Shown piece after piece: positions 27,782 to 47,879 of a DNA stretch of 64,000 nucleotides (its first letter is position 1; each line of letters opens with the position of its first letter). The position numbers and the translations under genes were made by a program. This DNA comes from an uncultured archaeon. GTDB lineage: Archaea > Thermoproteota > Nitrososphaeria > Nitrososphaerales > Gagatemarchaeaceae. The notes below the pieces were generated by a model that made no database searches, had not been told where the DNA came from, and saw nothing but the letters and a program-made list of their open reading frames with translations. The stretch is taken from contig CAWCYD010000003.1 of NCBI GenBank assembly GCA_963799775.1, positions 1,568,001 through 1,632,000 on the forward strand, read 5' to 3'.

Positions 27782-28166
27782 CTACTTTCCGAAGAGCTCG
27801 ATGTAGATCCCGTTCGGGTCCTTGATGTAGGTCCAGCGGCTCGTCTTCGTCTTCATGTCGAGCACGACGGGATAGCCCGCCTTCTCGGCCTGCGCAAGGG
27901 CCTTTGGGAGGTCTTCGACCTGGAAGGCCAGGTGGTCTAATGCCTCGCCAACGCCGTATTTCGTGTCAAAGTCGCTCCCCTTGCCATAGAAGTTCAGCTC
28001 GAGGAGGTGCCCTCCCTCTTCGCTCACGAGGCCCACGGTCTCCCCCTTCGTCGACTCGATCTTCGTCCTGCCCGTGACCTTCATCCCGATGAACCTTGGT
28101 GTAGAACTCGATGGACTTGTCCATGTCTTTGACCCTGATGCCCGTGTAGATGAGACGCGCCTTCAT
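27782..28166 (-). CDS. VOC/lactoylglutathione lyase-like protein (frameshift near 28090)
   Basis: YTGIRVKDMDKSIEFY...LELN...HLAFQVEDL...DPNGIYIEL. Confidence 0.85.
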
Positions 28167-28535
28167 TCGCGTAATGTCGTCCTGAGCGGGCATTAAGCTT
28201 TGCAGATTTTTGCGCGGAGGTCGATTACGTTCTCTAGCTGCCTGACATAATCGTCAAAGGACTCTGCGTCACGTTCCCAAGCCCTGACGAGGCGCCTCTT
28301 GTAGGCTCCCTCAACTCTTCTGAGAAACTCGCACGCGTCTTGCTCTGACATTGCGCGCGCCCTTCACCGCCAGGTCGACTCTCTCCAGATACCAACGGTC
28401 GGGCTTGGCGAGAATCTCCTTCAAATTCTCTGTGGAATTCGTCGTCTTCGGGAGAAGGCATCGTCACCTACGTGTAATGATGCGGGACGTAATAAACACC
28501 GATGCGAGCCTGCGCTCGATTTCCTTTCTCTCTAG

Positions 28536-29033
28536 CTAGCCGCCGGCCACTGCGGGGATGAAGTCGACCTCGTCCCCATTCCGCAGAGAAGCGCTCTTTG
28601 AGGCGGGGACGCCGTCTATGAGAATCATCATCGTCGGAATCATCGGGCTCATGGTTGGATGTTTCTGCGTGACTTGGGCGAGAAGGTCGCTGAAGTAAGC
28701 GGGAGTCTGGAGGACGAAGTACTCCTCCTTCACGCCTACAGCTAGGGGCATCTGAAAATACGACGCCTTGACCCTGACCGAAGAGCCGGAGGCGGTCACA
28801 ATCGGCGCAGCCTGGGACACCTGAGGCGTCGACGAAGCTGACGATGTGGTGGTCTCGGCAAATCCGCTGAGCAGCGATGACTGGGTGTTCTTGGAAGGAG
28901 TGGCATCCCCTGCAGCCGCCCTTCCAGCGGCACCAAGGAGGACCAACCCTGCGCCGACGGCAGAGAAGAGAAGCGCCGATTTCAGCAACCGGCGCCTGGA
29001 GATTCCCTTCTCGTCGTCAGAGGTCGAGGCCAA
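28536..29033 (-). CDS. Tat-signal MoaD/ThiS/SAMP-like ubiquitin-fold protein ending in GG
   Basis: N-term SRRRLLK + hydrophobic helix + AAA; S/T linker; C-term VRVK...LRNGDEVDFIPAVAGG*. Confidence 0.8.
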   Translation of the reverse strand: MASTSDDEKGISRRRLLKSALLFSAVGAGLVLLGAAGRAAAGDATPSKNTQSSLLSGFAETTTSSASSTPQVSQAAPIVTASGSSVRVKASYFQMPLAVGVKEEYFVLQTPAYFSDLLAQVTQKHPTMSPMIPTMMILIDGVPASKSASLRNGDEVDFIPAVAGG

Positions 29034-29050: not shown

Positions 29051-30432
29051 CTAGGGCGCCGCCTTCACCACCACCGTGCCCTGCATCCAGGGGTGATAGG
29101 AGCAACCGTATTGGTAGGTGCCCGGCGAGGTGAAGGTGTAGGTGAACGTGTCGCCAGTGTTCATCTGGCCTGAGTCGAAGCTGTGGTCGGTGGCTGTCAC
29201 AGTGTGAGGCGCCACGTCGTTGTTGGTCCACTGGACGGTGTTGTTGACGCCAATCACCACGGTGATCTTCGCTGGGGAGTATCCGGGACCTGCTACGTTC
29301 GTCTCGGAGCCTTGTGGGATGCTGATGTGGACCTGTGCGGCCACAGCGCTCGTGCTAGTAGTCGTCGAGGTGGTCGCCGTCGTCGAAGCCACCTTGAAGA
29401 TGCCCTCGTCCCCCTTTGGAACGAACTCGAACTGGTGGGTGACGAAGGGGTTCTTGCCGCCGGGGCCCTTGAAGTACATGTCGACTATCGCACCTCCGGA
29501 GGGTGGGATGTTCAACGTCTGCAGTCCGTACTCGGCGTTCGCGGGATTGCCGTCGATGTAGGTCGTGTTGAAGAGCGCTCCGATGACGTGAAAGGCGCTC
29601 CACTGGTTTGGCCCCGCGTTGAGGATGAACAGCCTTACGAGTTGGTTAGGCAGCACCGGCAGGGGCTTGGTGACATACCCGTTGGCCTTGGCGTTGAAGA
29701 CCACGTAGGTCGGGTCCCTCCAAGCATCCTGGTGTAGTTGCCCGCGTAGTTTCCGTCCGAGCCGGGATTGTTGTTCAGGTAGAACTCGCTCTGGAGGATG
29801 TAGTACGTCCCGCCGGGGGACGGAGGCAACGGCGTCGACGGGTTCACGACTATCATGCCATACATCCCGTTCGCGATGTGCTCTATGGCGGGCGACGTCC
29901 CGCAGTGATACATGAACACGCCTGGGTAGTCCGCTGTGAAGTTGAATGTGATTGACTGGCCCGGTGCGACTGGTTGGTAGTCTACTCCCCAATTTACTTG
30001 ACCGGCGTGGAAGTCGATTGAGTGGGCCATGGTCGTGAAGTTGTTGATGAACTTCGCGATAATGAGGTCGCCCTGGTTGACTATGATCGTCGGGCCTGGG
30101 ACGGTCCCGTTGAAGGTCCACGCGTCATAGGTCACGTTTGTAGCTAGAGTGATGACCTCGGGCTTGGCGACCAGCGTGACATGCCGGGTGGTAGGCGCTA
30201 TCTTCGCGACCGACGTTGTGGCGGCAAGCGTCTGAGTAGATTGCTGCGACGTCGATGTCGAGCCCGAAGAAGACGAGAGCTGGGACTGCAACCCCCTAAT
30301 CTGGTCGAGCTGGGACGCGGCGATGCTGCTAAAGCTCAGACTGAGCAGTATCAATACTAGCGCAACGGCCGCGAGGACCGCGGCAAACCTTCCGTCGGAG
30401 ATCCCCTTCCTTGTGCGGCTCTGAAGTCTCAA
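29051..30432 (-). CDS. nirK: Membrane-anchored copper nitrite reductase (AniA-like NirK) with C-terminal cupredoxin domain; frameshift near 29720
   Basis: WTFNGTVPGP, HSIDFH, YHC...H...GMYG, SAFHVIG, FVTHQF; C-terminal PHTVT...YGCSYHPWMQG. Confidence 0.8.
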
Positions 30433-30579: not shown

Positions 30580-31004
30580 ATGGGGCAGAGGAACCTCGGC
30601 AGGATATCGCCCCTAAAGAGAGACCACAGGGCCGTCGAGCGGTTGCTGCTTGGGCTGACCCTGCTTGTGGAGGACGCTGACTCGCCTCCCGGCGATGTCT
30701 CCGACTCGGTCGATGGAGCCTGGGCAAGATCATCGAGCGACACTTCCTCGACGAGGAGCGCAGCGTCTACGAGCCGCTCAAACAGAGCCTCGGCAGGGGC
30801 AACCCGGTTTACATCATGGCCGAAGATCACCGGGTGATGCGGCAGACCCTGCGGCGGTTGCTCGCAGCCTCGAGCGAGTGGACGAAGGGCCCACGTGGCG
30901 CCGTAGACGTCCGCTCCCAGCTCGGGTCTCTCCAGGCCCAGTTGGCCGCGCACTTTGAGAAGGAGGAGGCGGTGCTCTTCTGGCTCGCGGAACTGAAGCT
31001 CTGA
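30580..31004 (+). CDS. Hemerythrin/HHE-domain protein (frameshifted)
   Basis: LKRDHRAV...HFLDEE...MAEDHRVMR...LAAHFEKEEAVLF across frames. Confidence 0.75.
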
Positions 31005-31057: not shown

Positions 31058-31705
31058 ATGCTAGAGGCGGTGTTGCTGTGTCCGCAGCCCCACAGCTGGA
31101 TTGAGATCGCCGCGAATAGGTTCTCGGGGAGCGTGGAGATCCTCGACTCGAAGATGCTCCCGAAGGACGCCGTGCAGCACCTCTTCGACATCCAAGTCAA
31201 GCCTGAGCTGACGAAGCACCTCCTCTCCGCCCTTGAACAAGACAAGGACCTCATCGACATTGAGACCCTCAAGTCGAAGAGCGGGCACGTCTACGGATCC
31301 GCGACGTCTCTCAGATGCACGGTCTGCAAGGACGTGGTCAAGTCGAAGTGCTTCCTCGCCTCGGTCGACGTAACATCGGACGGGGCGAAGTGGACTGTAA
31401 TCGGGAACAACGAATCCTTCAGGGAGCTCCTCGGATCGCTCGAGAAGCACAAGATCCCCTTCGAGGTGAAGATGAAGAGGAATCTGGAGGACACGGAGTT
31501 GCTCACCGGGAGGCAAGAGCAACTTCTCGCGATCGCGTTCGAGAGGGGATACTTCGACTTTCCCAAGAAGGTGGGGCTCGAGGAACTCGCAGCCCTCGCC
31601 GACGTGAAGACATCGACGCTCGCGGAGATCCTCCGCAGAGGACAGAAGAAGATCCTGGGAGAGTACCTAGCGAGACGTTCTCTTCTGCACAAGAGTAGAG
31701 AATAG
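31058..31705 (+). CDS. Bat/HTH_10 family regulator with Cys cluster
   Basis: LTGRQEQLLAIAFERGYFDFPKKVGLEELA...STLAEILRRGQKKIL; CTVC...C upstream. Confidence 0.88.
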   Translation: MLEAVLLCPQPHSWIEIAANRFSGSVEILDSKMLPKDAVQHLFDIQVKPELTKHLLSALEQDKDLIDIETLKSKSGHVYGSATSLRCTVCKDVVKSKCFLASVDVTSDGAKWTVIGNNESFRELLGSLEKHKIPFEVKMKRNLEDTELLTGRQEQLLAIAFERGYFDFPKKVGLEELAALADVKTSTLAEILRRGQKKILGEYLARRSLLHKSRE

Positions 31706-33141: not shown

Positions 33142-34362
33142 ATGAGTTCGGCAAACCCGGTCTGGCTGGGATTCACGAGGATGGGCGGGAGGTTCGTCCT
33201 CAATTCCGAAGATCTAGCAGGGGGCATCGCGGTTCTCGGGCAGGGGTCGAACGCTCTTGCCCCTCTCCTCGCTCTGGCCTGCCACGAAGCGGGCAGGAAG
33301 GTGCTGCTGCTTGACATGGAGGGAAAGGCGGCAGATGCAATCTCTGGATACATGGGAGAATTCGACGTGTCCCACTTTCTCTACGACTCGCTCAGGATCG
33401 AGGACAATCCGGTCGTCCACGCGCAACTCCTGGCCGGCGCGTATGCGACTACACTCGACCTCTCGTTCGAGCAGGAGGCCAGTCTGAACGCCTTCGCCCA
33501 GATAATAGCCAATGAGCGAGGGGTCGCCAGCCCCTCATCGGTCGCTGACCTAATCCAATCCCCAGACGCCGCCAAGGGTCGAGCGATTGACCGGCTCAGG
33601 GCGAGGCTCGAGGCCCTACGGTCCCTGAATCTTCTGGGCGAGAAGGACGCGGTCAAACAGGTTATCCAAGAGAGCGCCGTGTTGAGCTTCAAGGGTGCAG
33701 GGTCACCCGAGGCCCAAGAGACTGCCGTGGCCCTCTTCCTCGCCAAGCTGCTTGCGATTCTTGGAGGAAGTGACGAAGTGCAGGGACCAGATGTGTTCAT
33801 AGTCACCGAGGCGAACCGGCTCTTCAAGGAGAGGCCCGTCTTTAGGAAGAGCCAGCGATTCCTCACCTCGTTCGTATCATCCTCCTTGGGGAAGGTGCTC
33901 GCTTCTGACGTGGCTTACGGATTGGACAAGGACTACATGGACACGTGCGGGGTAAGGATCCTCTCGAGCGCTGCATGGAACGACTCGGGGAGGGGCGGCC
34001 TCGTCCTCACCCCCAACATGTTCATGCTCCAGAACCCCTCCTACGGCTCGAGCGAGGTCTTCATCCCGAGGGGGTTCGAGGAGAGGAAAGGCACCGCAAA
34101 GGCCCCAGCCGGTCTCGTCCCGACGGCGGACGCCGAGCTCGACCTTCGCATACTCGAGGAAGTGGCCAGCTTCAAGGACGCGACGCGCACGTCGCTGATC
34201 TCCTTCCTTGCCTCGGAGTTCGACCCAGACGTCCTTGAGAAGGCCTTCGACAGGCTCCAAGCGGAAGGATGCATCGCCGTCACGCCGCAGGAGAGATCTG
34301 GGCGAACCATCCTCTCCGTCTCGCTCACCGACAAGGGCCGCGCGATGCTGGGGAGGCGGTAG
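33142..34362 (+). CDS. Degenerate HerA/VirB4-like P-loop protein with C-terminal wHTH
   Basis: IAVLGQGSN (eroded Walker A), VLLLDMEG, FIVTEANRL (eroded Walker B), C-term LTDKGR wing. Confidence 0.5.
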   Translation: MSSANPVWLGFTRMGGRFVLNSEDLAGGIAVLGQGSNALAPLLALACHEAGRKVLLLDMEGKAADAISGYMGEFDVSHFLYDSLRIEDNPVVHAQLLAGAYATTLDLSFEQEASLNAFAQIIANERGVASPSSVADLIQSPDAAKGRAIDRLRARLEALRSLNLLGEKDAVKQVIQESAVLSFKGAGSPEAQETAVALFLAKLLAILGGSDEVQGPDVFIVTEANRLFKERPVFRKSQRFLTSFVSSSLGKVLASDVAYGLDKDYMDTCGVRILSSAAWNDSGRGGLVLTPNMFMLQNPSYGSSEVFIPRGFEERKGTAKAPAGLVPTADAELDLRILEEVASFKDATRTSLISFLASEFDPDVLEKAFDRLQAEGCIAVTPQERSGRTILSVSLTDKGRAMLGRR

Positions 34363-34364
34363 AG

Positions 34365-35400
34365 TTGATTCCTCAACTGGAAAGGCTGCAGACGGGATGC
34401 AACGCCCTCGACCTCCTGACCGACGGCGGCCTAGCGACCGGGACGATAACCCAGATCTTCGGTGAGAAGGCCCTTGGGAAGAGCATCCTCTCTTTGCAGG
34501 CCGCGTACGCCACCGTGGCCGCCGGCAGTAGCGCGATCATTCTCGACACAGAGCAGTCGTATTTCAGCTACCTCGTCGGCTACCGGAGGGCCGGGTTCGA
34601 GAAGAGGTTCGGCGACAAGGTCCAGGTGAAGGAGGTCAAGCTCGTGAGGACGACGCGAGCGGCGAAGAAGAAGGACATGCCCGTCTCTAGGAGCGAACTC
34701 GTCACCTCCGTCAGCAGCCTGCTCGACCGGATCGGGGTCGCGTACAACGACAACCACCTGAGCGCCATCGCCGATGTCCTGTCGCCGGATTTCACCGTAG
34801 ACCTCGGTGAGGAGAAGCAGGAGCCTTGCGTGATGATAATCCAGCTTCCGGACATCATCGACCTGCTCGCGCTCCACGGGCACGACGTCCAGAAGATAGT
34901 CTCGGAGAACGGGAGGGTGGAGCTGAGACTAAAGTCGACCCCGGTCTACGACTCGGCGCTGCACCAGATCGTGGAGCAGACAAAGGCCAAGCTTCTGGTG
35001 TACGACTCGATCTCCGCACCATTCAAGTCGTCTTTCTTCGGGACGCAGGACACTTCCGGCAAGGAGCGCCGGGATGGCGATAATGCTCGCCCACGCGCAG
35101 CGGCTCTGCATCCAGTTCGGGCTGGCGGTGGTCGTGACCAGCCACGCGTCCATCAACCCGATGGCCGCCTGGGACAGGGGCAAGCCCTACGGAGGGCTCA
35201 CGCTCGGGCACGAAGCGAAGTTCAGCTTCGAGCTGACCAAGCACACCGCCAAGAGGAACGGCGATGCCACCTCCGTCAACCCGCAAGAGAAGATAGACAA
35301 GGATAGGGATGGGAGGGCTTTCTGGGTGCACAGGCACCCAGCCCTCGAGGACTGGTCGAGGTACGGGCACACCTTCATCGACGACGAGGGGTTCCACTGA
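34365..35400 (+). CDS. RecA-superfamily ATPase (RadA/RadB paralog) with large insertion; frameshift near 35055
   Basis: LQTGCNALDLLTDGGL...ITQIFGEKALGKS, LDTE, LLVYDSIS, AVVVTSH, KPYGG. Confidence 0.8.
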
Positions 35401-36482
35401 TGGGCTGGCTCGGCAAGGGTCTGGCCTTTCTGCTCGCGATAATCCTCTTCGGCGTGGGGGCCTGGCCGCTCTCCCTCCTCATCTTCGCTGCACTCTTCGT
35501 TCCGCCTGTCTTCAGGTTGTGGAGGCGCAGGCCCGCGTCCCAGGAACGGAAGGGGCCTAGGCAACCATTCCAGCTCAGGTACCTCTTGGGGGGCTTCCTA
35601 TTCCTGCTGGCGGTCATTGGATTCCTGGCACATGGCACCTTCTCACCGATAGTGTTCGCGTCCCTGGGCCTGCTCGTGTTGTTCTGGGGCCGGGGTCCGA
35701 AAAGGGTGTTCGGCTCGGGGTTGAAGCCTGTCAAGGAATCCGTGATTCTCAGGTCTTCCCTGTTTCCTTACTCGTGGGCCGCTGTCGCCCAGGTCAAGCT
35801 GCTCACCCGCGACGTCGGGAGAGCGCTCGCGGGTGTGACCGGCACAGTCCTCGTGTTCTCGTCCGATACCCCTTCCATCTACCTCGTGTTCGAGAGACGC
35901 GCTGCCAGCGAGAGGGCGGCCGAGGATTCGCTCCTCTCCGCCGTCAGAGAAGCCGCCATCTCTGTGTCCGCGCTTGGAGCCTATCTTCTTCCGCTCGACT
36001 CCCAGAAGGCCGACGAGCTGCTTCAGCCCTCCCTTGAGTCTGTTTGGACAAGTGATGGCGACTGGTCCACCGCGCTCGCGTCTTCACACTACGACGTCGT
36101 CTGCATCAAACAAGACAAGGGCTTCGCGAAGTCTCTTGCCTCATACAAGAGGACTGACGAAAGGAAAAGTGGCCTGGCGAAGGTTCCCACCGCCTCCAGA
36201 GAGCTCACCCATCCCCCGTTCCTCACCGAGGTCTTCAAGGTACTGGGAAGCAGGCTCACTTGGCCTCACCCAGACCAGTATACAGCGTTCCTCAGCAGCC
36301 TGCTCGCGACTAGCAACGAGCCTATCGGGACGAGGATACTCGACGCGGGCACCGCTTCGCAGTCTCAGATGGTCCTGGTCAAGTCCCAGGGAAGCCCTTC
36401 TGTCGAGCTTAGCAGGGCGCAGCTCCGCGCAGTCGTCAAAATGTACGACCCCCGGCCCAGATCGGTTGTGACTGGAATCTAG
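35400..36482 (+). CDS. Membrane protein, N-terminal TM helices + soluble domain
   Basis: Four hydrophobic segments in first ~100 aa; translationally coupled to ATPase gene. Confidence 0.6.
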   Translation: MGWLGKGLAFLLAIILFGVGAWPLSLLIFAALFVPPVFRLWRRRPASQERKGPRQPFQLRYLLGGFLFLLAVIGFLAHGTFSPIVFASLGLLVLFWGRGPKRVFGSGLKPVKESVILRSSLFPYSWAAVAQVKLLTRDVGRALAGVTGTVLVFSSDTPSIYLVFERRAASERAAEDSLLSAVREAAISVSALGAYLLPLDSQKADELLQPSLESVWTSDGDWSTALASSHYDVVCIKQDKGFAKSLASYKRTDERKSGLAKVPTASRELTHPPFLTEVFKVLGSRLTWPHPDQYTAFLSSLLATSNEPIGTRILDAGTASQSQMVLVKSQGSPSVELSRAQLRAVVKMYDPRPRSVVTGI

Positions 36483-36514
36483 CCTTCGAAGACTATTATC
36501 GTCAGGGTTCGTCG
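36479..36514 (-). repeat. Distal relic of Lrp/AsnC gene 3' end
   Basis: Reverse strand encodes RRTLTIIVFEG* vs RSTLTMIVVEG* of the Lrp gene; 25/30 nt identical. Confidence 0.75.
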
Positions 36515-36538
36515 ACCCGCTTTCTCGAGAAGGGACTT

Positions 36539-37709
36539 TTGGATATCCTTCACAAACTATTTCCAAGCCTCTCAACGAGTTCGATTCAGTTGGGGCCTAG
36601 GAGAAGCGAGCTCGCCTTCATCATCACAGTCATGGTTGTTTTGGCATCATACGTGACGGCCTCCGAAGTACTCTCGACCGGCCCGGAATCATCTTCTGTG
36701 ATCACAACGATTAATGTCGGAGGCAGTCCAAGATATGCTGCCTTCGACCCCGCGAATGGCTACATATTCGTATGCAATGTTGGCTCCAACACGAGTCTGA
36801 AGGGAACCGTGGATGTGATCGACGGATCTTCGAATACCGTGGTGGCCAAGATCACGGTCGGAGTTTTCCCCAAATGGCTAGCTTTCGACTCGGCCAATGG
36901 AGATATCCTCGTCTCCAACTACGACTCTCATGCGATATCGGACGTAAGCGGAACATCGTGGGTCACCACTGCTACGCTCTCGCTCCCAAGCAAGGGGCCC
37001 CCGGTGCCTGAACCTGATGGAATCGCCTTCGACCCGACGAACGGGTATCTGTATGTCGTCGAGAACAACCTGGACTCTGTCATCGTGATTAACGGCGCGA
37101 ACGGCGCGGCGGTAGGTTCGCCGATACCAGTCGGCAAGGGCACCAGACGGAATAGCATTCAATCCATACACCGAGCAGATTGATGTCGCAAGTGACACAT
37201 CCCTCTCCGTGTTGAACCCGGCAAACGACTCGGTTGAGAGTTTCAAGACGCCGACCAGCTCGACCTCCCTCCCATTCACCGTCGCGGTCGACCCGTCGAC
37301 TGGGGACGTCTTTGTCGGCAATTTCGGCTCCAGTAGCGTCTACGTGTTCGGCCATTCTGGAGAGTTGGCGAACGTGACCCTAACCCAATCGCCCACCGCG
37401 ATCGCATTCGACTCGGCGACCGATGCAATGTTCGTGGCGGGCTCGAATGCCACTTTTGCGATAAATGCTCAGAACTTCGCCTTGATGGGCAAGCCGATTC
37501 CAGTCGGAAAGTCACTGCCGGATGTAAGCAATGGGGTCGCCTTCGACCTTGAGAATCACGAAATCTATGTGTCAAACGGGCTGGACGGGACCATATCAGT
37601 GATAGCCCCTGGGACGACGTCTCCTCCTCTGAGTTTTGCTCTTGTCGCCGTACCGATAATCTTCGTCGCCGTGCTGGCCGGCGTCGTGGTCTACCGACGC
37701 ATCGATTAG
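36539..37709 (+). CDS. YVTN/YncE beta-propeller surface protein with C-terminal TM (frameshift near 37140)
   Basis: Repeated P..IAFDPxNG.IYV.N...VSVI..T.VG units. Confidence 0.8.
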
Positions 37710-37732
37710 AGAGCCAGGGAGCCCTGATTCGG

Positions 37733-37768
37733 CTAGCCTTCGACCAAGATCATCGTGAGAGTGCTCCT
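37733..37768 (-). repeat. Relic of Lrp/AsnC gene 3' end
   Basis: 30/36 nt identical to 38287-38322; encodes RSTLTMILVEG*. Confidence 0.85.
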
Positions 37769-37775
37769 TCGAGAC

Positions 37776-37994
37776 TCAATCCATGAGTTCGAGGAATTGC
37801 TTCTTGGTCAGGCCCGCTTGCTCGACGATGGACAGAAGGGTCCCTCGCTTGATCTCATTCATCCGCGGTACCGCAACAAATCTTCCCTCTTGATTTTCGA
37901 CGATGATGTGGCTTCCCTTCTGTCTCACTGGCTTGAACCCAACCTTGGAGAGCGTTTTCAGCACCTCCCTCCAGTTGAGAACAGGAAGTGCCAT
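37776..37994 (-). CDS. hicA: HicA toxin
   Basis: REVLKTLSKVGF...RQKGSHII...VP...EIKRGTLLSI. Confidence 0.9.
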   Translation of the reverse strand: MALPVLNWREVLKTLSKVGFKPVRQKGSHIIVENQEGRFVAVPRMNEIKRGTLLSIVEQAGLTKKQFLELMD

Positions 37995-37997
37995 ACC

Positions 37998-38246
37998 TTA
38001 GACTACGACTTCGACTAGTTCCGCGTTCTTGGACACTTCCCTCTCCTTGAGGTGCTCAAGAACCAATTCGATTGCCTCCTTGATGTTGACGAGGGCTTCT
38101 TTCCTCGTCTCGCCCTGGCTGATGGCCTGGGGAAGTTCGAGGCATTGGACCGAGTAGCCGCCTTCCTCCTCCGGTTCCAATATGACGGTGAAGCGTCGAC
38201 CGCCGCGGACGGCTACTCGCTTGGACATGCGTGGAGTTCGGGCCAC
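37998..38246 (-). CDS. hicB: HicB antitoxin
   Basis: FTVILEPEEEGGYSV...LP.AISQGETRKEALVNIKEAI. Confidence 0.9.
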   Translation of the reverse strand: MARTPRMSKRVAVRGGRRFTVILEPEEEGGYSVQCLELPQAISQGETRKEALVNIKEAIELVLEHLKEREVSKNAELVEVVV

Positions 38247-38286
38247 GCTTCACTATTAAGCCTAACGTGGTTCTATCGTGGATTGC

Positions 38287-38520
38287 TTACCCTTCGACGA
38301 CGATCATCGTCAGGGTGCTCCTGACGCGGTCGAGCCTGCGTATCTTCCAAGTGATGGTCTCCTTGACCTTCTCCATGGTGTCGGCCTCGACCCGAGCTAT
38401 GATATCATAAACGCCGTACACAACATAGACGTCCTTCACAAACTCTAATCCCCTTAGGGATTTCAGAAGCTCCTCCTCAGCGCCTAAATCAGCATTTATT
38501 AAAACGAACGCCATCGGCAA
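38287..38520 (-). CDS. Stand-alone Lrp/AsnC ligand-binding (RAM) domain protein
   Basis: AFVLIN...VYGVYDIIARVEA...IRRLDRVRSTLTMIV. Confidence 0.9.
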   Translation of the reverse strand: MPMAFVLINADLGAEEELLKSLRGLEFVKDVYVVYGVYDIIARVEADTMEKVKETITWKIRRLDRVRSTLTMIVVEG

Positions 38521-38679
38521 TTGTCGAATCTCTGCCTCTCGCATTACTATGGTGATGAGCGGTAATAACCATTGCTACTTGCGTTGCTAAAACGAAAGCC
38601 AAGGGCATTTTTGCGTTCGTCACCATTTAGCCGAACTCGGTATAAAGAGTTCATTTCCCACCTTACCGCGTAAGATCCG

Positions 38680-39357
38680 ATGAAGCGCGGAGAAGCAGCC
38701 TTTGCAACCATCCAGCTCATCATCTTCGCTGCCGTTCTGACCCTCGTGGCCCTGCCGGCCTTGAATGCTCCGTTCGTCCCGCGCTCTTTCGTCGCGACCA
38801 CGACAACCCCGTCAACCCAGGGTCTCGTCCTTACTCTCACCCTCAACTCGACCAGCCTGAAGAGCGGGCAGGGAATCAAGGCCACGGTCGAAGAGGTGAA
38901 TACGCTCCGCCAGACCAACAACGTGTCCGCCTCTGACAACTGGCCCTTGAAGAGCGCGACAGAGATACGGGGGACGACGCTGAACGATGGTGATTGCGGC
39001 CCAATCAACTTCCCCATGGGTTTGGAAATCGTCAGCGGATATTACACAAAAGACAACGCCTCGACGGCGCATCCACTCGAGCTCTACGGGTTTGGGTTGA
39101 CCAGTTGTCCTGCGGTCCTCAGCGAGATAGACCAATACAGCTTCCAGGCATCGAGCGAGAACGCGAGCATCATCGGAAGCTGCGACCCCAATCCGTGCTT
39201 TGCATACGGAATGACTGCCTCGGTGAGCGCCCGTGGCTCTTGGACGAGCTTCCTGGTCTTTGGTCCCAGCTTCGCGAACTTTGGCCCTGGCGTGTACACG
39301 GTTATTGCCGGAGACGAGTGGGGCGCCCTCGCCTTCACGTACTTTGACGTCGAATAG
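38680..39357 (+). CDS. Secreted/anchored protein with GDEWG-motif Ig-like domain
   Basis: Leader MKRGEAAF..LVALP; LTLNST...WP...C...CP...GVYTVIAGDEWG. Confidence 0.7.
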   Translation: MKRGEAAFATIQLIIFAAVLTLVALPALNAPFVPRSFVATTTTPSTQGLVLTLTLNSTSLKSGQGIKATVEEVNTLRQTNNVSASDNWPLKSATEIRGTTLNDGDCGPINFPMGLEIVSGYYTKDNASTAHPLELYGFGLTSCPAVLSEIDQYSFQASSENASIIGSCDPNPCFAYGMTASVSARGSWTSFLVFGPSFANFGPGVYTVIAGDEWGALAFTYFDVE

Positions 39358-39406
39358 GTCGCCGCCTACGCAGTTCTTCTCATGGGGATTACCGCTGACC
39401 CGCCTA

Positions 39407-40567
39407 TTAGGGCAAGGGGCAGTTCTGTCCCGAGCCAACAAGAGCTGTGTCCACGTACCCGGGGCCAGCGGAGTCATGGAAGGCTATGAATTCCGAGGGC
39501 AGGGTCACCAACAGCTCGTTCATCAAACCATTGTAAGCCACGAACTGAGGTGTGCCCGGGAGCGAGTACATATCGAGCAGAGCCCCTGTCGCCCCGTCGT
39601 AGATGAACGTGTAGTTGAAGTCGAGAGAAATCGCTGCTATTTGGTCCGTGTTCTGAACGTAAGCCATGCTGTCGAACGGGCCGCACTCCTGCGGATTGAC
39701 CTTGAAGACCACCTGCCCATTGGTCGCGTTGATAGCGGCCAAAGTGTCGCCCGACACGTAGAAGAGGTGGTGTACCGTGTTGACGGCGACCCTGGGATAA
39801 CTCCCTCCTCCGAGCGTTACGTTGGCAACGAGGCTATTGCTCGTGCCATTAACAATGTACGCTACAGAGTCGCAGACAAAGCTGCCGACACACCCTGCCC
39901 CGATAATCATGTTCGTGCTCGGGTCGACGGCGATGGAGTCTGGCGAGTGTGGAAGGGGCACTCTCGCAACCACAGAACCCGTCTGGACGTTGATTCCCGT
40001 CAGCGTGCCATTGGCCGAACCGTAGAGGACGTGTGTGACCTGGTCGTACGCGAGGGTTCCATACCCGAGGGCCGGATGGAGCTCCCCCACAATCTGGTCA
40101 GTTGTGCCGTTGATCTCCACAACTCCGCCATCGACCGATACATAGACCATGTGGGTCTGCCAATCCGTTGCGATCCCGTTCTCGCTCCCCGCCGGGAGCT
40201 GAATGCTGGCCAGCACTTTGTGCGCGTAGCCGTTCACGACTGTGAGGTTCTTCGAGGACCACCCAGCGATGTAGATCTCGTCGGGGTTGGGATCCAGCCC
40301 GATTGTGCGGGGCTGCTGCCCTCCCAGCGTGATGTTGAAGGTCTCAAGGCTTGAAGCGGGAAACGGCGGACCTAGGGATACCGTGGCGGTAGCTGTGCTC
40401 AAAGTTGTCGTCTGTATAGACAAGACTGTAGAGACGCTCGTGAGAGTCGAAACTGAAGTCGCAGTCACGGTAGCGGTTTGGCGGGAGCCTGACCCGACGA
40501 AATAGCCAACTCCAAGGCCTGTTGCGACCAGAATCACGAGGACAATCGCAACAATATCATTTCTCAT
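39407..40567 (-). CDS. YncE-like beta-propeller surface protein
   Basis: N-term TM, T-rich linker, repeated IAVD...VYV...ING.T units. Confidence 0.75.
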   Translation of the reverse strand: MRNDIVAIVLVILVATGLGVGYFVGSGSRQTATVTATSVSTLTSVSTVLSIQTTTLSTATATVSLGPPFPASSLETFNITLGGQQPRTIGLDPNPDEIYIAGWSSKNLTVVNGYAHKVLASIQLPAGSENGIATDWQTHMVYVSVDGGVVEINGTTDQIVGELHPALGYGTLAYDQVTHVLYGSANGTLTGINVQTGSVVARVPLPHSPDSIAVDPSTNMIIGAGCVGSFVCDSVAYIVNGTSNSLVANVTLGGGSYPRVAVNTVHHLFYVSGDTLAAINATNGQVVFKVNPQECGPFDSMAYVQNTDQIAAISLDFNYTFIYDGATGALLDMYSLPGTPQFVAYNGLMNELLVTLPSEFIAFHDSAGPGYVDTALVGSGQNCPLP

Positions 40568-40780
40568 TTTTACTGTGACATGCGGAGAAGGGGGCGCTCA
40601 CTATTGAACCTAACAACCAGCTCCTGCAGAGGAATGTTTCACCGCATATGGCGAGGTTCCATTGCGCCTCAGCGAGGACAATTCAAGCCGCGTCCCAGTA
40701 ATGTGGTCAGTGACGGATGCCTGTTTATCCACATTTGCAACATTTCCACGAAAGGTTTTCCGGCGACAGTGTTTTGGCAA

Positions 40781-42359
40781 TCAATGGTAAACATTGATGA
40801 TCTGGAGTTGGAACACATCTAGAAACGGCTGGCCGTTGACGCTCTCGTTCAGGACTATTGTGACACTCTCTTGCGGTGTGTTGGCAAATGTATTGATGCA
40901 CACTTGGAAGTAGTAGGGCTGGTCAGCCTGGATCACGAGCGAAGAATTGACAGGGAAGACCTGGAGCCAATTGGGGAGCGGGGACCTCCGTATCATTCTG
41001 GATTAAGCCGACCCCCGTGAAATTCACGGATAGGGTCGCATTTGAGATCATGCCAGGTGTGGGATCATAGACACCGGCTCCAATGGCGTAGTTGGTCTGA
41101 TCGGTCCCTATCTCTGCCGCCTGTGCGCCGGGAGAAAAGCCGACCGGCCCTGGTGAGCTCAATATGTGCGGGTTCCCGTCTGCATTGTTCAGCGCTATCA
41201 GGCCCTCTCCCATCAGGCCCTTGACGGAACCAGAAGCGTCGATGAAGAGAGAGTCGTTGAATGGGTTTGCGGGCGGAGGTGGGATATGGGTCTGCGGAGG
41301 AGGCGGTATTCCGACGCCGATCCCAAAGAGGAGCAGCGTAGAGGTCGCCCCCTGGGGGCCGACGTTCTCAAGGTGAGAAGGACTGAACTCCATCCAGGCG
41401 CCCTTCGGGACATCTGGAGAACTGAGATACACATCGGTCGTTGTGTTCGATGTCACAGTGACCTGGAACTTTTGTCCGCTAGCGAAGAAATCGTTCGGCC
41501 CGGCGTTCGACCCACATGAGCTCGCGTAGAGGTACACCCATGAGTAGGACGGCCCGCTGATCGTGACCTTGATTCCCTGCTGGATGGCGGTCGCATCACG
41601 CGCCATGAAGTAGACTGAGCCTATCGGCCTGACGGTGCGAAAGTCGAAGATGTACCCGCCCGGATGGGCGGAGAACTGTCCGCTGAAGCCTCCGCCTGGG
41701 AAACCACCTCCTGGGATCGAGACGCTCCTTGTCACGTTCTGGAGCGTCCCGGATAGAACCAGGGGTCGGAGGTCAGTAGAGTTGATCATCGCATCAGGCG
41801 TGAAGTAAACTGTGAGGTTCAGTTGCAATCCATTAAGGTCGGTACCTCGGAACGTGAATTGAATGGAAGCATTGTTCGAGAGTTCGAAGCCGAAGAGCTG
41901 CTCATGCAGGACTCCGCTCCATGAGGGTGGCTCGGGCTCGGAGACGTCCGTAGACATGTTGAATGTCTGAGGGACACCGACGGTGGACTCGGAAGAGGTG
42001 CACATTGGCGTGCTCCCGTTGGGGTAGGACGTCGCACAGTCTTCGTGGTACATCGTGGGAAGCCCCGAAGCGTTGAGAAGCGTGTCCTCGCTCGCAGCCA
42101 AGACCGAGCTAAAGGAAGAAGAGTTCTGAACATTGGCGCTGACGGTTGTCGAGTTCGCGCTAGAAGACGTAACGGTCGCAGGCGAGGACGTAGCGCTTTA
42201 TGGAGAGCCGGGGGTCTGCGTCGAAGCATTCGTCGTCGGCGAAAATCCTCTGGTGATCGATTGCGTGGGAGTGGAAGGGAGAGATAGAAACACAAGCAGC
42301 GAGGCTATCGCTACTGTGGCCAGAACGCCTCCCACAAGAGCTCCTTCGTTCCTCCTCAA
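40781..42359 (-). CDS. Secreted/anchored protein, paralog of 55835..57415 (frameshifts near 42110 and 40980)
   Basis: Shared GVPQTFNMS, AHPGGYIFDFRTVR, GLMGEGLIALN, IQADQPYYFQ.C. Confidence 0.75.
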
Positions 42360-42713
42360 GGTCACCAATGGAGTTCCAAGGCATTGGTACTATTATCTCC
42401 TGTGAAGCTTCCCTCCCTCCTGAGCTAAAGGGCAGAGGTGGGTGAGGGCACCGAGATTTGCGTGGAAGAAGAGCCGCCGTCTGAGTGATAGCCAACCCTG
42501 CCGACTATCGTGAGCGCAACCAAGACGGTCACTGTCGCCGCCGCGCTCCTCATAGTCTTCAGATTTACGGAGACTCTCGTCAGCGATGGGGCGGTTCTGT
42601 GCACCACGCCGCCTTGGTGTGCTCTTTTGACAGGCGGACCGTGAGCTGAAGCCCTTCTCGACTTCACAAGAGTTTTTGACCATCCTCTGGCTATTCTTTT
42701 TCAGTCTGTCCCC

Positions 42714-43442
42714 ATGAAGAGGAAAGAAGCTAGCTTCATAGTGATACAAACAGGAATCCTAGTGGCTGTGCTTCTGCTCGTCTCCCTCCCCATACAGTCT
42801 CCATCGCCGCCGCCAAGTCCTCCAAATCCGATGGAAGAAACGTGCGCACAGACCCAGTCTTCAACCGCTCCACCTACCCTCCTAAGTCCTGTCAAAAACG
42901 AGACGACATTATCGAACGGCACGGTCGTCGACGAAACGTACTATCCCGTCCTGCTCCTTCGACCCGATACGACAGGAGCAATCTGCGTCAGGTATACCGA
43001 CCCGCTTTCGAAGGTGTCACAGAACCTTGTCGGAGCTACGTCGCTTTCCACCGGGATATTCGAGGTCAACAAGTCCTCGGGCGGAGGGGGAGAGACGATG
43101 GGGGTGGTTCCGCTCCCTCGAGGTGGCATCCTCAGCATCAGCGCGAGCCCTTCTCTGATCCAAGTCCAACCCGGCAGGAGCGAGGTCATCGCTTACACAT
43201 TGACATCGGGGAATTCGACCGGTGTGTATGAAGCAATGATGCCGCCGTGGGGCTACTGCTGGGGGCTACCGATATTTGTCGGGGGGAGCCCTTCCCAGCT
43301 CAATGCTACGGACTATTCTCAACTCGCTTTCATCACTAACCTGGCATGCTTTCCGCCTGGTGCAAGCAATCTCGTTGTGCTCTCAATCGCTTTCAGTAAC
43401 ATCGCGTTGGAATATGTGAGCCAGCCTGGCAGCAATGATTGA
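42714..43442 (+). CDS. Secreted/anchored Cys-containing protein
   Basis: Leader MKRKEASF..LLLVSLP; TTLSNGTV..PVLL..CVRY shared with 58742..59968. Confidence 0.7.
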   Translation: MKRKEASFIVIQTGILVAVLLLVSLPIQSPSPPPSPPNPMEETCAQTQSSTAPPTLLSPVKNETTLSNGTVVDETYYPVLLLRPDTTGAICVRYTDPLSKVSQNLVGATSLSTGIFEVNKSSGGGGETMGVVPLPRGGILSISASPSLIQVQPGRSEVIAYTLTSGNSTGVYEAMMPPWGYCWGLPIFVGGSPSQLNATDYSQLAFITNLACFPPGASNLVVLSIAFSNIALEYVSQPGSND

Positions 43443-43634
43443 TTCTTCGACTACCCATGGAAGTAGTGGCATCCTCGTAAGGTTCGAAATCATTCTCACG
43501 CCTTGAGCGAGACGTGTTTGATTCCCTGGGGTCAAGGTAGGCGAGGAGTTCACTGTGTTAGGGGTTCATTGCGGCAAAGTTTGGACAAATCTATTTACCG
43601 CGCCGAGTGGAATGACCCTGCAGCGTCTTGGGCC

Positions 43635-44832
43635 TTGCCCAGTCGAAACACTTTCGGTTACGCCGCAATTCTCGCCGCTGCGATAGCGTGTGTTCTTGCC
43701 CTCGACCTTGTGGTCTTCCCCGTCTACCTGCCGCCGGTTGGCCCAAGCCAAACGTCGACGGGCGAGGCTAATGCCCAGCTCGGCTTACGCCTCACCCTCT
43801 CGCTGAACTCTACGAGGGTCGCATTCGGTGGACGCATCCAGATTGGCGTCGAGGAGCGGAACACCCTCTCGCGAGAGTGAACAACGTCACGGCCGCCGAT
43901 GACTGGCCGGCTGTGGGGCTTGACCTGGCCGCCGGGCCGAGGTCGATCTGCCCGGAGAGGGACGACATGGGGATAATCATCTACGAGGGTCCGCTAGACT
44001 TTGGAAACGTGTCCAGCGTGACCGGGGAGCAGATTGCGCCTGAAGGGGGTGCGTCATGCCCTTTTGTGCCGGGAATAATCTACTCGTACCAGTTTCAGGC
44101 CTCGAGCGACAACGCCACGGAGGCGTATGGCTGCAAGCCGGGCGCTTCTAACTCATCCGGGCCCGGCACGTCCTGTAGCTGCGTCCCTAGATCCTGTTCC
44201 CCTTTGGGCGTGAAGCCGGCGTTGACACAGAAGACCCTCGTCGTAAGAGGCTACTATGTCAATTTCACCACCCTCCACGCTTTTGCACCTGGTGAGTACT
44301 CGTGGTCGCGGGAGACGAATGGGGCGACGTCGCAATAGCTCACTTCACGGTCACGAGCCCGGGCTGCAAGACCTTGGACGATTCGCTGCCGTTTCCGGCA
44401 CTCCAGGAGAGAACCATCGGGGTCATCAACGAGCCAGGGGCCTGGGCATTCACTGCGAGTCTGGACAGCGCGGTGGGCTTTTTTGGAAGGAACGTGACAA
44501 TAAGCGCCAGCCTGGTGAACGTTGGGAACACATCTGAGAAGATCGAGCTCGTGGTTCCCATAATCGCACGTCTTCAGGTGCTCCGGAGTGATGGGAGCGC
44601 GGCTTGGACCTACGCCGCTCCATCACCCTTTCCATTACCCTTTTCGCCTAGTCTCTCCCTGGAGGATGTCACTCCCGACCAGCGGTTCAGCGATTCGGTT
44701 GGAATCCCCACCTCGCAGTTGCAACTCGGACAGAACTATACCGTGGTGGTTAGCCCGACATTCTTCGCCTCGCCGCCGTCAGCTCCCATCTCCTCCGGCT
44801 TGGGAATCACCTTCCCGCTGATGATCTGTTAA
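43635..44832 (+). CDS. Secreted/anchored GDEWG-domain protein with extra Ig-like domain (frameshifts near 43875 and 44320)
   Basis: TM, LTLSLNST, NNVTAADDWP, VAGDEWG across three frames. Confidence 0.65.
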
Positions 44833-44902
44833 GGGTTCATTGCTCCTCCGCTTGCGCGTTTCATCCGCACGTTGGACTACAGTTATGGCTTGGGCATAAT
44901 CC

Positions 44903-45910: not shown

Positions 45911-45996
45911 TCCTTCGGGTCAGCGTCCGCTAGCCGGCTGAAAATGCGAGCGTTCGCCGAACAAAGGGTTCATTGCGCCTCCCGATTCTATTCGCC

Positions 45997-46587
45997 TTAG
46001 GGGGTGAAGGCGCCCAGGAACGCGAGACATCCGTAGTCTGTCCCATTGACGGTCTCCGTGGTGTATCCTATGCAACCATACACGCTCTGTCCCACTACCG
46101 GGGCTTTCACTCCGCCGAATTTCTGGGAGAAGATGGCCGTGAAGTTCGTGATGGTCCCAGTTGCTGTAATACTGGAGATGTAATACGAGGGAGAGCTCGT
46201 GCAGCTCGTGGCGGCACCACCACCGAAATTGTTCCCCGAACCGTAGGTCAGATCGACGCAATCCAGGCCCTTGTCGAGAGTAGTGCCGATGTCCGATGGC
46301 TGGTCTATGTTCGTGATTAGAAAGGTGCAGGTGTCGTTGCTGATACTGCACCCGGTTAGGTCAACACCCTTGGTCGGGCCGATGAACTCGTTGGAGAATT
46401 CGCCCGCGCCCGTTGGCTGCGAGGTCGTCGTTGTCACAATCGTGCTCGTCAGGTAGCTCGTCTGGAACAGGGTGGTTGTGGAGGTGGACGTCTCGGTGCG
46501 GACTGTGGAGGTGCCTGCAAAATATCCAACGCCAAGGCTCACCACTAGGAGGACTGTCACTGAAAGTGCAAGTAACTCGCGCTTCAA
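45997..46587 (-). CDS. Secreted/anchored T-rich, Cys-containing protein
   Basis: TM LGVGYFAG (like 39407..40567), T-rich linker, six Cys. Confidence 0.65.
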   Translation of the reverse strand: MKRELLALSVTVLLVVSLGVGYFAGTSTVRTETSTSTTTLFQTSYLTSTIVTTTTSQPTGAGEFSNEFIGPTKGVDLTGCSISNDTCTFLITNIDQPSDIGTTLDKGLDCVDLTYGSGNNFGGGAATSCTSSPSYYISSITATGTITNFTAIFSQKFGGVKAPVVGQSVYGCIGYTTETVNGTDYGCLAFLGAFTP

Positions 46588-47781: not shown

Positions 47782-47879
47782 TCGTGATATACTTTTGTCC
47801 GAACGTTACAGCTCACGCTAGCTTATCGAAAATGCGGGCATTCGCCGAGCATAGGGTTCATCGCGCCTCCGCCGGAGAT

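What the first reader, a model, noticed from the sequence alone, without database searches (positions are those of the whole stretch)
28536..29033. Tat-exported ubiquitin-like protein in a nirK operon
Seen: a twin-arginine signal (SRRRLLK, hydrophobic helix, AAA), an S/T linker and a MoaD/SAMP beta-grasp domain ending in an intact GG, 17 bp downstream of nirK. Established: SAMP/MoaD/ThiS proteins are cytoplasmic and need ATP-dependent E1 (UbaA/MoeB) activation, while Tat exports folded proteins. Inference: it could be activated inside and exported as a thiocarboxylate (extracellular sulfur or copper handling for NirK), or could carry conjugated or bound cargo out through Tat. No E1 or JAMM gene is in the window.
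Basis: partly seen in the sequence, partly recalled or inferred. Interest (0 to 1): 0.75.

Follow-up and report, generated by a model that had tools for sequence, protein, structure and literature searches.

The report
Exported MoaD-like protein beside nitrite reductase
Soil archaea encode, right after their copper nitrite reductase gene, a small ubiquitin-fold protein that carries an export signal and keeps the Gly-Gly tail normally used only inside the cell, which points to an undescribed helper, most likely for copper handling, working outside the membrane.

Summary
Window 28536-29033 (-) encodes 165 aa: a twin-arginine signal (SRRRLLK plus a 19-residue uncharged stretch), an S/T-rich linker, and a confidently folded MoaD/ThiS beta-grasp ending in GG, 17 nt after a NirK-cupredoxin fusion gene. 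Homologues keep the N-terminal extension (18 of 19) and the GG (19 of 19). A profile search finds 115 representative clusters at E<=1e-10. TatA and TatC are in the genome.

The gene follows nirK in 31 of 37 metagenome loci and in 10 of 16 loci from related genomes. It is not obligatory: 7 genomes have the NirK orthologue without it. Paralogues sit beside other cupredoxin-fold proteins or metal ABC transporters.

Compared with its nearest cytoplasmic MoaD relatives, the exported family has near-invariant Met95, Met131 and Met135, plus Asp157. It is almost Cys-free.

My best reading (about 0.45) is an extracytoplasmic Cu(I)-handling accessory for cupredoxin enzymes. Whether the GG tail is E1-activated before export is open.

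The nirK frameshift in the window is an assembly error. I found no description of such a protein in print.

The parts
28536..29033 (-). Gene for the 165-aa exported MoaD/ThiS-like protein (stop codon 28536-28538)
   Evidence: single frame against the orthologue L029
28980..29000 (-). Codons for S12-R13-R14-R15-L16-L17-K18, the twin-arginine motif
   Evidence: R13, R14, L16 and L17 are nearly invariant in A1. By my Tat-like rule 13 of 14 nirK-linked orthologues and the window protein pass.
28923..28979 (-). Codons for residues 19-37, an uncharged hydrophobic h-region. It may be a cleaved signal or an uncleaved anchor; this is undecided.
   Evidence: 19 uncharged residues, mean Kyte-Doolittle 2.2
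28782..28922 (-). Codons for residues 38-84: the c-region (RAAAG) and a variable S/T/P/A-rich linker
   Evidence: variable in sequence and length; pLDDT under 50
28539..28781 (-). Codons for residues 85-165, the beta-grasp domain with family-specific M95, M131, M135 and D157 and the terminal G164-G165 (28539-28544)
29051..30432 (-). NirK-type copper nitrite reductase fused to a C-terminal cupredoxin domain. In the window it is read in two frames because one G is missing from the run at 29712-29714.
30580..31004 (+). Hemerythrin (HHE) gene, divergent from nirK. It is split in the window; a short-read contig differs by single-base deletions at 30714 and 30718.
31058..31705 (+). HTH_10 regulator, which keeps its place beside nirK in most related loci

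Best explanation
The gene encodes an extracytoplasmic accessory protein built on the MoaD/ThiS beta-grasp fold. It is made with a twin-arginine signal and passes the membrane folded through TatAC. It then sits on the outer face of the membrane on a long S/T-rich stalk, either tethered by an uncleaved signal-anchor or released after cleavage.

There I propose it binds Cu(I) at a methionine cluster (M95, M131, M135, possibly with H125 and D157) next to the base of its flexible Gly-Gly tail. It would hand copper to cupredoxin-type sites of neighbouring enzymes. The main client would be the NirK-cupredoxin fusion, which needs three coppers per chain. NirK mostly lacks a Tat-type signal, so it probably crosses unfolded and copper-free.

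Shown here: the architecture, fold, conservation, synteny, and the presence of the Tat machinery.
Inferred: export itself, copper binding, the client, and any role of the GG tail.
For: 1. Architecture and conservation.

2. TatC (122.7 bits) and two TatA hits are in the genome.

3. Synteny:
- NirK-cupredoxin lies directly upstream in 31 of 37 metagenome loci. Five of the other six hold no upstream DNA.
- It lies directly upstream in 10 of 16 loci from 14 related genomes spanning 4 genera.
- The intergenic gap is 7-75 nt in 14 nirK-linked orthologue pairs.

4. In the loci without NirK, the neighbours are again extracytoplasmic cupredoxin-fold or metal-transport proteins:
- L030 and L033: ZnuA plus ABC-3 transporter, a PF09819 membrane protein, and a TM-anchored protein with a Cys-less cupredoxin-like domain.
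- L113: a 318-aa protein whose N-terminal part matches the cupredoxin region of NirK 2dv6_A at E 8.8e-5, next to an NrfD-type subunit.

5. Family-specific chemistry, comparing 93 family sequences with the 25 nearest short MoaD-like hits:
- M95: 92% against 8%.
- M131: 95% against 24% (Leu/Ile in the others).
- M135: 99% against 28% (Leu in the others).
- D157: 91%, where the others have Ala in 80%.
- Met content 5.2% against 2.0%.
- 76 of 80 long members have no Cys in the last 90 residues.
Met/His sites without Cys are the usual Cu(I) ligands in oxidising compartments (recalled: CusF, CopC, PCuAC).

6. From the model's strand order and beta-grasp topology, M95, H125, M131, M135 and the tail all lie at the same end of the sheet. 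This is inference; I had no coordinates.

7. NirK keeps all T1 and T2 ligands and the ligands of the extra T1 site. Only 1 of 14 NirK N-termini passes the Tat rule, against 13 of 14 for the partner gene.

8. It is not the housekeeping MoaD. A canonical MoaD sits next to MoaE elsewhere in the genome. This protein scores 21 bits against the 66-bit moaD cut-off.
Against: No copper binding was measured or modelled, and no coordinates were available to check that the methionines meet.

H125-P126 is shared with the nearest cytoplasmic MoaD-like proteins (88% and 80%), so the histidine is inherited rather than new.

Positions 131 and 135 are hydrophobic in those relatives. The same surface is where MoaD meets MoaE and MoeB (recalled). 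The methionines could therefore be a protein-protein interface.

A pure copper chaperone gives no obvious reason for a terminal GG kept in 110 of the top 117 hits.

Seven genomes carry the NirK orthologue with no such gene downstream or elsewhere, so NirK does not need it.

No match to any known copper-chaperone family appeared in Pfam.

Tat use may simply reflect fast folding of the beta-grasp, with nothing loaded.
Confidence: 0.45

Rival explanations
1. Exported thiocarboxylate carrier. The housekeeping MoaD-MoeB-type E1 adenylates and thiocarboxylates the GG tail in the cytoplasm, and Tat exports the folded, modified protein. Outside, the terminal thiocarboxylate sulfur acts as a Cu(I) ligand on a swinging arm or as a sulfur donor.
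For: The terminal GG is kept in 110 of the top 117 hits, and the tail has the same length as in MoaD (FIPxxAGG against xxPPVSGG). Tat is the one route that could carry a pre-modified folded protein. Same-genus genomes have a strong ThiF-type E1 in 19 of 22. A Prok-JAB protease is in the genome. It would explain why both the GG and the methionine patch beside the tail are conserved.
Against: No E1, sulfurtransferase or JAMM gene lies in any locus examined. NirK has no sulfide-containing centre. No ThiF-type E1 was found in this assembly, though at 82% completeness that is weak evidence. There is no precedent I could find.
Confidence: 0.15
2. Non-catalytic docking or scaffold subunit. The beta-grasp is a protein-protein module that holds cupredoxin-fold enzymes at the membrane or couples them to a partner, using the Met-rich patch and the GG tail as an interface, much as MoaD's tail threads into MoaE. 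No metal is bound.
For: The conserved patch coincides with the usual partner-binding surface of MoaD and ubiquitin (recalled, together with topology). Positions 131 and 135 are hydrophobic in cytoplasmic relatives. NirK and this protein share the same anchor-plus-stalk layout. The neighbours are always extracytoplasmic proteins.
Against: Packing alone would tolerate Leu, Ile and Met, as in the cytoplasmic relatives, yet Met is 92-99% fixed. The neighbours differ between loci (NirK, Cys-less cupredoxin, NrfD module), and what they share is copper or metal rather than one partner surface.
Confidence: 0.22
3. Extracellular ubiquitin-like modifier or Tat export tag. The GG tail becomes covalently linked to other proteins, either before export (so that cargo without a signal rides through Tat) or outside the cell by ATP-independent oxidative chemistry of a thiocarboxylate.
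For: A strictly conserved free GG terminus. A Tat signal on a Ubl-fold protein. Hitchhiker export through Tat is known for non-covalent partners (title and abstract of PMC4273604 in the listing).
Against: No E2/E3-like, E1 or isopeptidase genes are linked. No fused or longer forms were found (weak evidence). The neighbours have their own N-terminal anchors.
Confidence: 0.05
4. Not exported. The N-terminal extension is a mis-called start or a membrane anchor that leaves an ordinary MoaD-like domain in the cytoplasm.
For: The window gene starts with TTG. An internal GTG at residue 79 (V79) would give an 87-residue protein of MoaD size.
Against: The extension is conserved at protein level, with an invariant RR, across 18 of 19 homologues and 63 of 80 long representatives. 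Orthologues have ATG starts upstream of the RR. The charge distribution puts the N-terminus inside. The domain is Cys-free and Met-rich, unlike its cytoplasmic relatives. A canonical MoaD-MoaE pair exists elsewhere.
Confidence: 0.04

Closest known systems
MoaD / ThiS / SAMP sulfur-carrier and modifier proteins (Pfam PF02597)
   Same: Beta-grasp fold, domain length, the DEV...P..GG C-terminal strand and tail, and a free terminal Gly-Gly.
   Different: - Carries a Tat signal and a stalk of about 45 residues.
- Scores far below the MoaD equivalog cut-off (21 against 66 bits).
- Not next to MoaE or an E1.
- Has a near-invariant Met triad and D157 that its nearest cytoplasmic relatives lack.
- Encoded with extracytoplasmic copper enzymes.
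Extracytoplasmic Cu(I) chaperones CusF, CopC/PcoC, PCuAC, NosL (recalled)
   Same: Small exported proteins without Cys that use Met and His for Cu(I), encoded beside copper enzymes or transporters.
   Different: Unrelated folds and no sequence match (one search lists only ThiS and a weak Mfa1 hit). None of them has a conserved terminal GG. Copper binding is not shown here.
NirV, the accessory gene that follows nirK in many bacteria (recalled)
   Same: Position immediately downstream of nirK, and a presumed role in NirK maturation.
   Different: NirV belongs to a different fold family (recalled: related to formylglycine-generating enzymes). There is no homology to this protein.
SoxY, the Tat-exported sulfur-carrier protein with a C-terminal GGCGG swinging arm (recalled)
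   Same: A carrier protein exported by Tat whose working part is a flexible glycine-rich C-terminal arm.
   Different: SoxY has a different fold and carries its substrate on a cysteine. This family has no cysteine and ends in GG.
Rieske-type Tat signal-anchors (recalled; a weak feature-based lead)
   Same: A twin-arginine N-terminus that may stay as a membrane anchor after Tat-dependent insertion.
   Different: Whether the signal here is cleaved or retained is unknown.

Membership tests
ThiS/MoaD superfamily (PF02597) | Profile match above the curated cut-off | tested here: met
   35 bits against 22.5, residues 103-165. PF02597 is also precomputed for all 19 homologues.
ThiS/MoaD superfamily (PF02597) | Beta-grasp fold | tested here: met
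   AF2 block-mean pLDDT above 90 for residues 101-160. Foldseek top hits are MoaD 6jc0_A, 6jbz_B, 1vjk and SAMP1 3po0.
ThiS/MoaD superfamily (PF02597) | C-terminal Gly-Gly at the very end of the chain | tested here: met
   The window protein ends in AGG. 18 of 19 homologues and 110 of the top 117 hits end in GG.
MoaD proper (molybdopterin synthase small subunit, TIGR01682) | Score above the equivalog cut-off | tested here: not met
   21.2 bits against 66.15
MoaD proper (molybdopterin synthase small subunit, TIGR01682) | Partnership with MoaE | tested here: not met
   The only MoaE (C3:534740-535075) sits beside a separate canonical MoaD at C3:534479-534709.
SAMP/Urm1-type modifiers | Activation by a ThiF-type E1 | not testable with these tools
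   No E1 over the cut-off in this assembly, which is 82% complete. Present in 19 of 22 same-genus genomes. Needs biochemistry.
SAMP/Urm1-type modifiers | Cytoplasmic location | tested here: not met
   A conserved Tat-type signal precedes the domain. This is a prediction only.
Tat substrates | S/T-R-R-x-F-L-K-like motif within the first 35 residues, followed by an uncharged h-region | tested here: met
   SRRRLLK at residues 12-18 plus 19 uncharged residues. SignalP and TatFind themselves were not available; the rule is my own.
Tat substrates | Tat machinery in the same genome | tested here: met
   TatC at 122.7 bits; TatA at 32.4 and 31.5 bits
Tat substrates | RR-dependent export | not testable with these tools
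   Needs RR>KK variants in a host.
Known periplasmic Cu(I) chaperone families (CusF, CopC, PCuAC, NosL) | Sequence membership | tested here: not met
   No such Pfam family at E<=0.1. The resemblance is in chemistry and context only.
Copper-containing nitrite reductase (neighbour gene) | T1 and T2 copper ligands and the catalytic Asp and His | tested here: met
   H132, H137, D135, H171, C172, H180, M185, H277 and H328 are invariant in 14 orthologues. TIGR02376 scores 168.7 bits, below the 296-bit equivalog cut-off. Assigning these residues to T1/T2 rests on recalled NirK motifs.

The most novel reading that the evidence does not exclude
A ubiquitin-like protein that works outside the cell. Its Gly-Gly tail is thiocarboxylated by the cytoplasmic E1, and the folded, activated protein is shipped through Tat. 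On the cell surface the activated tail is used without ATP, either as a sulfur-and-methionine Cu(I) claw that loads cupredoxin sites, or for oxidative covalent attachment to surface proteins.
Probability: 0.15. Interest if true: 0.92.

Novelty: new variant of a known kind. Interest (0 to 1): 0.72.

Why it matters
All characterised ThiS/MoaD/SAMP/Urm1 proteins act in the cytoplasm because their chemistry starts with ATP-dependent adenylation (recalled). A conserved family that keeps the Gly-Gly tail but is routed through Tat means one of two things. Either the beta-grasp-plus-GG module has been re-used for a new extracytoplasmic job, or activated ubiquitin-like proteins can be exported.

It also bears on how archaeal copper enzymes get their metal. 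These archaea have no outer membrane and live in acid, copper-poor peat and soil. No NirK maturation factor is known for them.

The family is small, soluble and Cys-free, so the question is directly testable.

Tried and rejected
- Complex prediction of NirK (residues 76-455, 14-row alignment) with the beta-grasp domain (70-row alignment) gave no verdict: scores 0.29 and 0.01 against a mark of 0.32. It says nothing either way.
- The look-up of sequencing runs listed no RNA holder, so expression could not be examined. The laid contigs do not cover 28498-28725.
- The search of earlier findings was not open.
- A search for longer, fused forms of the domain found none. This is weak evidence.
- A phylum-wide sample of 401 genomes found the family only in the window's own genome. 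The other five hits score like canonical MoaD.
- G439's three hits at about 1e-20 proved to be canonical MoaD beside MoaE or MoeA, and I dropped them from the counts.
- I considered that the missing E1 in this genome argues against activation, and rejected it. The genome has three other cytoplasmic GG-terminated ThiS/MoaD proteins plus MoaE, which also need an E1, so the gene is probably in the unassembled 18%.
- I considered nirK to be a pseudogene, and rejected it.
- The AmoA search was uninformative because its controls did not ring.
- The promoter and terminator scan is bacterial-type and uninformative here.
- The ESM Atlas gave only one ThiS-family archaeal cluster at 0.94 and weak Tat-signal leads.
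Taxonomy was not given either.
- No supplementary files of any paper were consulted.

Full report
**What is there**

Window 28536..29033 on the minus strand is a 165-codon ORF with a TTG start that ends in ...IPAVAGG-stop. It begins 17 nt after the stop (29051-29053) of a NirK-like gene. The protein reads as follows:
- an acidic N-terminus;
- S12-RRR-LL-K18;
- 19 uncharged residues (SALLFSAVGAGLVLLGAAG);
- RAAAG;
- an S/T/P/A-rich stretch to about residue 84;
- a compact domain to the end.

Pfam ThiS (PF02597) matches residues 103-165 at 35 bits, against a cut-off of 22.5. AlphaFold2 on a 20-sequence alignment gives strands 85-94, 100-109, 135-139 and 155-160 and a helix at 114-124. Block-mean pLDDT is above 90 for residues 101-160, and residues 1-78 are disordered. 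Foldseek's best solved matches are MoaD (6jc0_A, TM 0.78 on the target; 6jbz_B; 1vjk) and SAMP1 (3po0). The protein has no cysteine.

**Is the extension real and is GG kept?**

A word-indexed search gave 19 homologues of 93-174 aa. In their alignment 18 of 19 carry S/T-R-R-x-L/V-L plus a hydrophobic stretch. R13, R14, L16 and L17 are nearly invariant, while the linker varies freely. All 19 have the GG, and 18 end on it. P0017 (93 aa) has no N-terminus. P0010 has seven residues after the GG.

A profile search of 1.84 billion representatives found 404 hits at E<=1e-3, 115 at <=1e-10 and 33 at <=1e-30. I applied a TatFind-like rule of my own: RR-x-hydrophobic-hydrophobic, then at least 13 uncharged residues.
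- 63 of the 80 top hits that are >=130 aa pass. Most of the 17 failures begin inside the hydrophobic stretch, which suggests truncated gene calls.
- 78 of the 80 end in GG, and 110 of all 117 top hits do.
- 76 of the 80 have no Cys in the last 90 residues.
- As a control, 49 of 3611 ORFs of >=150 aa in this genome pass, and 2 of the 48 lower-ranked, mostly MoaD-sized hits pass.

Orthologues have ATG starts upstream of the RR motif. In L029 the ATG lies 9 nt after the nirK stop. The genome encodes TatC (122.7 bits) and two TatA-family hits.

**The organism and the assembly**

Record titles of related contigs name Nitrososphaerales/Thaumarchaeota MAGs from soil and peat. The window's genome is 2.47 Mb in 3 contigs and is estimated 82% complete.

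Three neighbouring genes are frameshifted in the window: glyoxalase near 28092-28096, nirK at 29701-29716, and hemerythrin at 30714-30720. The MoaD-like gene itself is in one frame. Three relatives have one more base at the nirK site. A short-read contig that is otherwise identical to the window has an extra G in the run at 29712-29714, and single-base deletions at 30714 and 30718. The frameshifts are therefore assembly errors, and nirK is intact.

**The neighbour**

In relatives nirK is a single ORF of 451-506 aa. Its layout is an N-terminal hydrophobic anchor, an S/T linker, two cupredoxin domains and a third C-terminal cupredoxin domain. All expected copper ligands are invariant in 14 orthologues:
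- in the two-domain core, H132, H137, D135, H171, C172, H180, M185, H277 and H328;
- in the C-terminal domain, H405, C439, H442 and M445.
Assigning these residues to T1 and T2 sites rests on recalled NirK motifs.

Passages of PMC11237513 note that a NirK-plastocyanin architecture is common in Thaumarchaeota, and that MoaD-MoeB fusions occur there. They do not mention an exported MoaD-like protein.

Only 1 of 14 NirK N-termini passes my Tat rule, against 13 of 14 for the downstream gene. The window's NirK fails the rule and its MoaD-like protein passes. The enzyme therefore probably crosses the membrane unfolded and copper-free, while its small neighbour crosses folded.

**Synteny**

Among 37 metagenome loci, 31 have the NirK cupredoxin end directly upstream. 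Five hold no upstream DNA (L045, L051, L057, L066, L075). One, L054, has 679 nt upstream without nirK and has a 369-aa membrane protein downstream. The scan patterns favour the close subfamily, and several loci duplicate genome loci, so these are not independent counts.

Among 97 genomes of the same taxonomic family, 14 carry a member at E<=1e-30, in 16 loci:
- 10 loci are directly after nirK: G000, G022, G020, G013, G502, G445, G443, G492, G491 and G508, spanning 4 genera.
- One locus (G019) is at a contig end.
- Five loci lie elsewhere.

The five others are as follows:
- L030 and L033 have ZnuA, an ABC ATPase, ABC-3 permeases, a PF09819 membrane protein directly upstream, and downstream a TM-anchored protein. 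The last domain of that protein resembles the NirK C-terminal cupredoxin but lacks the Cys.
- L113 has a 318-aa protein whose N-terminal part matches the cupredoxin region of NirK 2dv6_A (E 8.8e-5), next to an NrfD-type subunit.
- L031 has a beta-propeller protein and an unknown 197-aa protein.
- L035 has a cupredoxin ORF about 3 kb away.

**Evidence against a strict tie to NirK**

Of the 97 genomes, 18 have a full-length NirK-cupredoxin orthologue.
- 10 of the 18 have the gene next door.
- 7 have none within about 1.2 kb or more of downstream sequence examined and no family hit anywhere at E<=1e-18: G444, G438, G468, G506, G457, G509 and G450.
- 1 (G446) ends at the contig edge.

Conversely, G011 (two copies), G017 and G007 have the gene but no NirK orthologue. 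The protein is thus an optional accessory, and what links its contexts is cupredoxin-fold or metal-handling proteins outside the membrane.

**What distinguishes it from cytoplasmic MoaD**

It is not the housekeeping MoaD. A canonical MoaD lies beside MoaE at C3:534479-535075, and two further cytoplasmic GG-terminated relatives exist. This protein reaches only 21 bits on the moaD model, whose cut-off is 66.

Across 93 family sequences, chosen for being >=110 aa and ending in GG, the conserved residues are Y92 98%, M95 92%, E104 97%, P111 94%, H125 94%, M131 95%, M135 99%, G141 98%, L150 96%, E155 91%, D157 91% and P160 90%.

I compared these with the 25 nearest short MoaD-like hits.
- Specific to the family:
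  - M95, where 8% of the others have Met;
  - M131, 24% Met, otherwise Leu/Ile;
  - M135, 28% Met, otherwise mostly Leu;
  - D157, where the others have Ala in 80%;
  - Q94.
- Shared with the relatives, and so inherited: Y92, F93, E104, H125-P126, L150, D154, V156 and P160.
- Methionine content is 5.2% against 2.0%.

By the model's strand order and beta-grasp topology (sheet order 2-1-5-3-4, recalled), M95 ends strand 1, H125 ends the helix, M131 is in the following loop, M135 starts strand 3, and the tail leaves strand 5. All of these lie at the same end of the sheet. This is inference, since I had no coordinates. It is also the surface that ubiquitin-fold proteins use to meet partners (recalled).

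**Mechanism**

The most economical reading is a Tat-exported beta-grasp protein, on a stalk and either tethered or released, that binds Cu(I) through a methionine cluster beside its flexible tail and supplies cupredoxin sites, above all the three coppers of NirK.

It accounts for the Cys-free, Met-fixed chemistry, the location, the neighbours, and the fact that the gene is dispensable in some genomes. It does not by itself explain the almost absolute terminal GG.

That residue pair is the strongest hint for the bolder alternative: the tail is thiocarboxylated inside by the general E1 and used outside. The E1 is found in 19 of 22 same-genus genomes. It is absent from this incomplete assembly. 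A Prok-JAB is present on C2. I cannot separate these readings, nor a pure docking role, with the tools at hand.

**Novelty**

Full-text searches returned nothing describing a signal-bearing ThiS/MoaD/SAMP protein. The searches were:
- twin-arginine, ThiS, MoaD and ubiquitin-like;
- nirK, MoaD and Thaumarchaeota;
- beta-grasp, copper chaperone and periplasmic;
- nirK, copper chaperone, Thaumarchaeota and accessory;
- MoaD-like and signal peptide;
- ThiS, beta-grasp, Tat signal and exported.

Term look-ups in two comparative-genomic surveys found none either: 'signal peptide', 'secreted', 'extracellular' and the like in PMC2948915 and PMC1779556 (passages only). Source annotation, where any is given, calls members 'molybdopterin converting factor small subunit'. 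The library lacks most subscription journals, and I opened no supplements.

**Verdict**

This is a real, conserved and apparently undescribed exported branch of the MoaD/ThiS family, tied to extracytoplasmic copper enzymes. Its function is inferred, not shown.

Noticed in passing
window 28092-28096, 29711-29714, 30714-30720: Three adjacent genes (glyoxalase, nirK, hemerythrin) are frameshifted in the window. A short-read contig restores nirK and differs in hemerythrin by single-base indels. The assembly therefore probably carries homopolymer-type indel errors elsewhere, which may also depress its completeness estimate.
   Followed up: partly
genome G000 as a whole; relatives L036-L039: No ThiF-type E1 was found in this assembly by profile or tblastn. 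Yet it has MoaD plus MoaE, two more GG-terminated ThiS-family proteins and a Prok-JAB. Relatives encode a SAMP-like domain in the same open frame as an E1-rhodanese protein.
   Followed up: partly
G000 C3:1256548-1256883 (outside the window): A SAMP-like protein with about 17 residues after its GG, which would need C-terminal processing.
   Followed up: no
L030 2714-9285; L033 7090-15156: Paralogues of the exported MoaD-like gene lie inside a ZnuA/ABC-3 metal-uptake cluster. A PF09819 membrane protein and an anchored protein with a Cys-less cupredoxin-like domain are in the same cluster.
   Followed up: partly
L113 6054-9925: A divergent paralogue (138 aa, TRR motif, ends MTGG) follows a 166-aa unknown protein, a cupredoxin-like 318-aa protein with a C-terminal anchor, and a 652-aa NrfD-type membrane subunit.
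   Followed up: partly
L031 7327-7920; L113 4106-4693; L109 3938-4540: An uncharacterised protein of about 197 aa with no Pfam match and no signal recurs near these loci. In L109 it takes the place that the HTH_10 regulator holds beside nirK, so it may be a regulator.
   Followed up: no
L110 6488-7308; L111 4233-5044: In one genus the operon continues after the MoaD-like gene with a cupin and a hemerythrin-domain gene.
   Followed up: no
window 35400-50071: A run of about 20 ORFs of 125-392 aa with no Pfam match at E<=1e-5. It begins just after a KaiC/Rad51-like ATPase at 34269-35306. It may be a mobile or lineage-specific island.
   Followed up: no
P0010 (homologue, 174 aa): The one homologue of the 19 that has residues (seven) after the GG. 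This could be a precursor form or a gene-call artefact.
   Followed up: no
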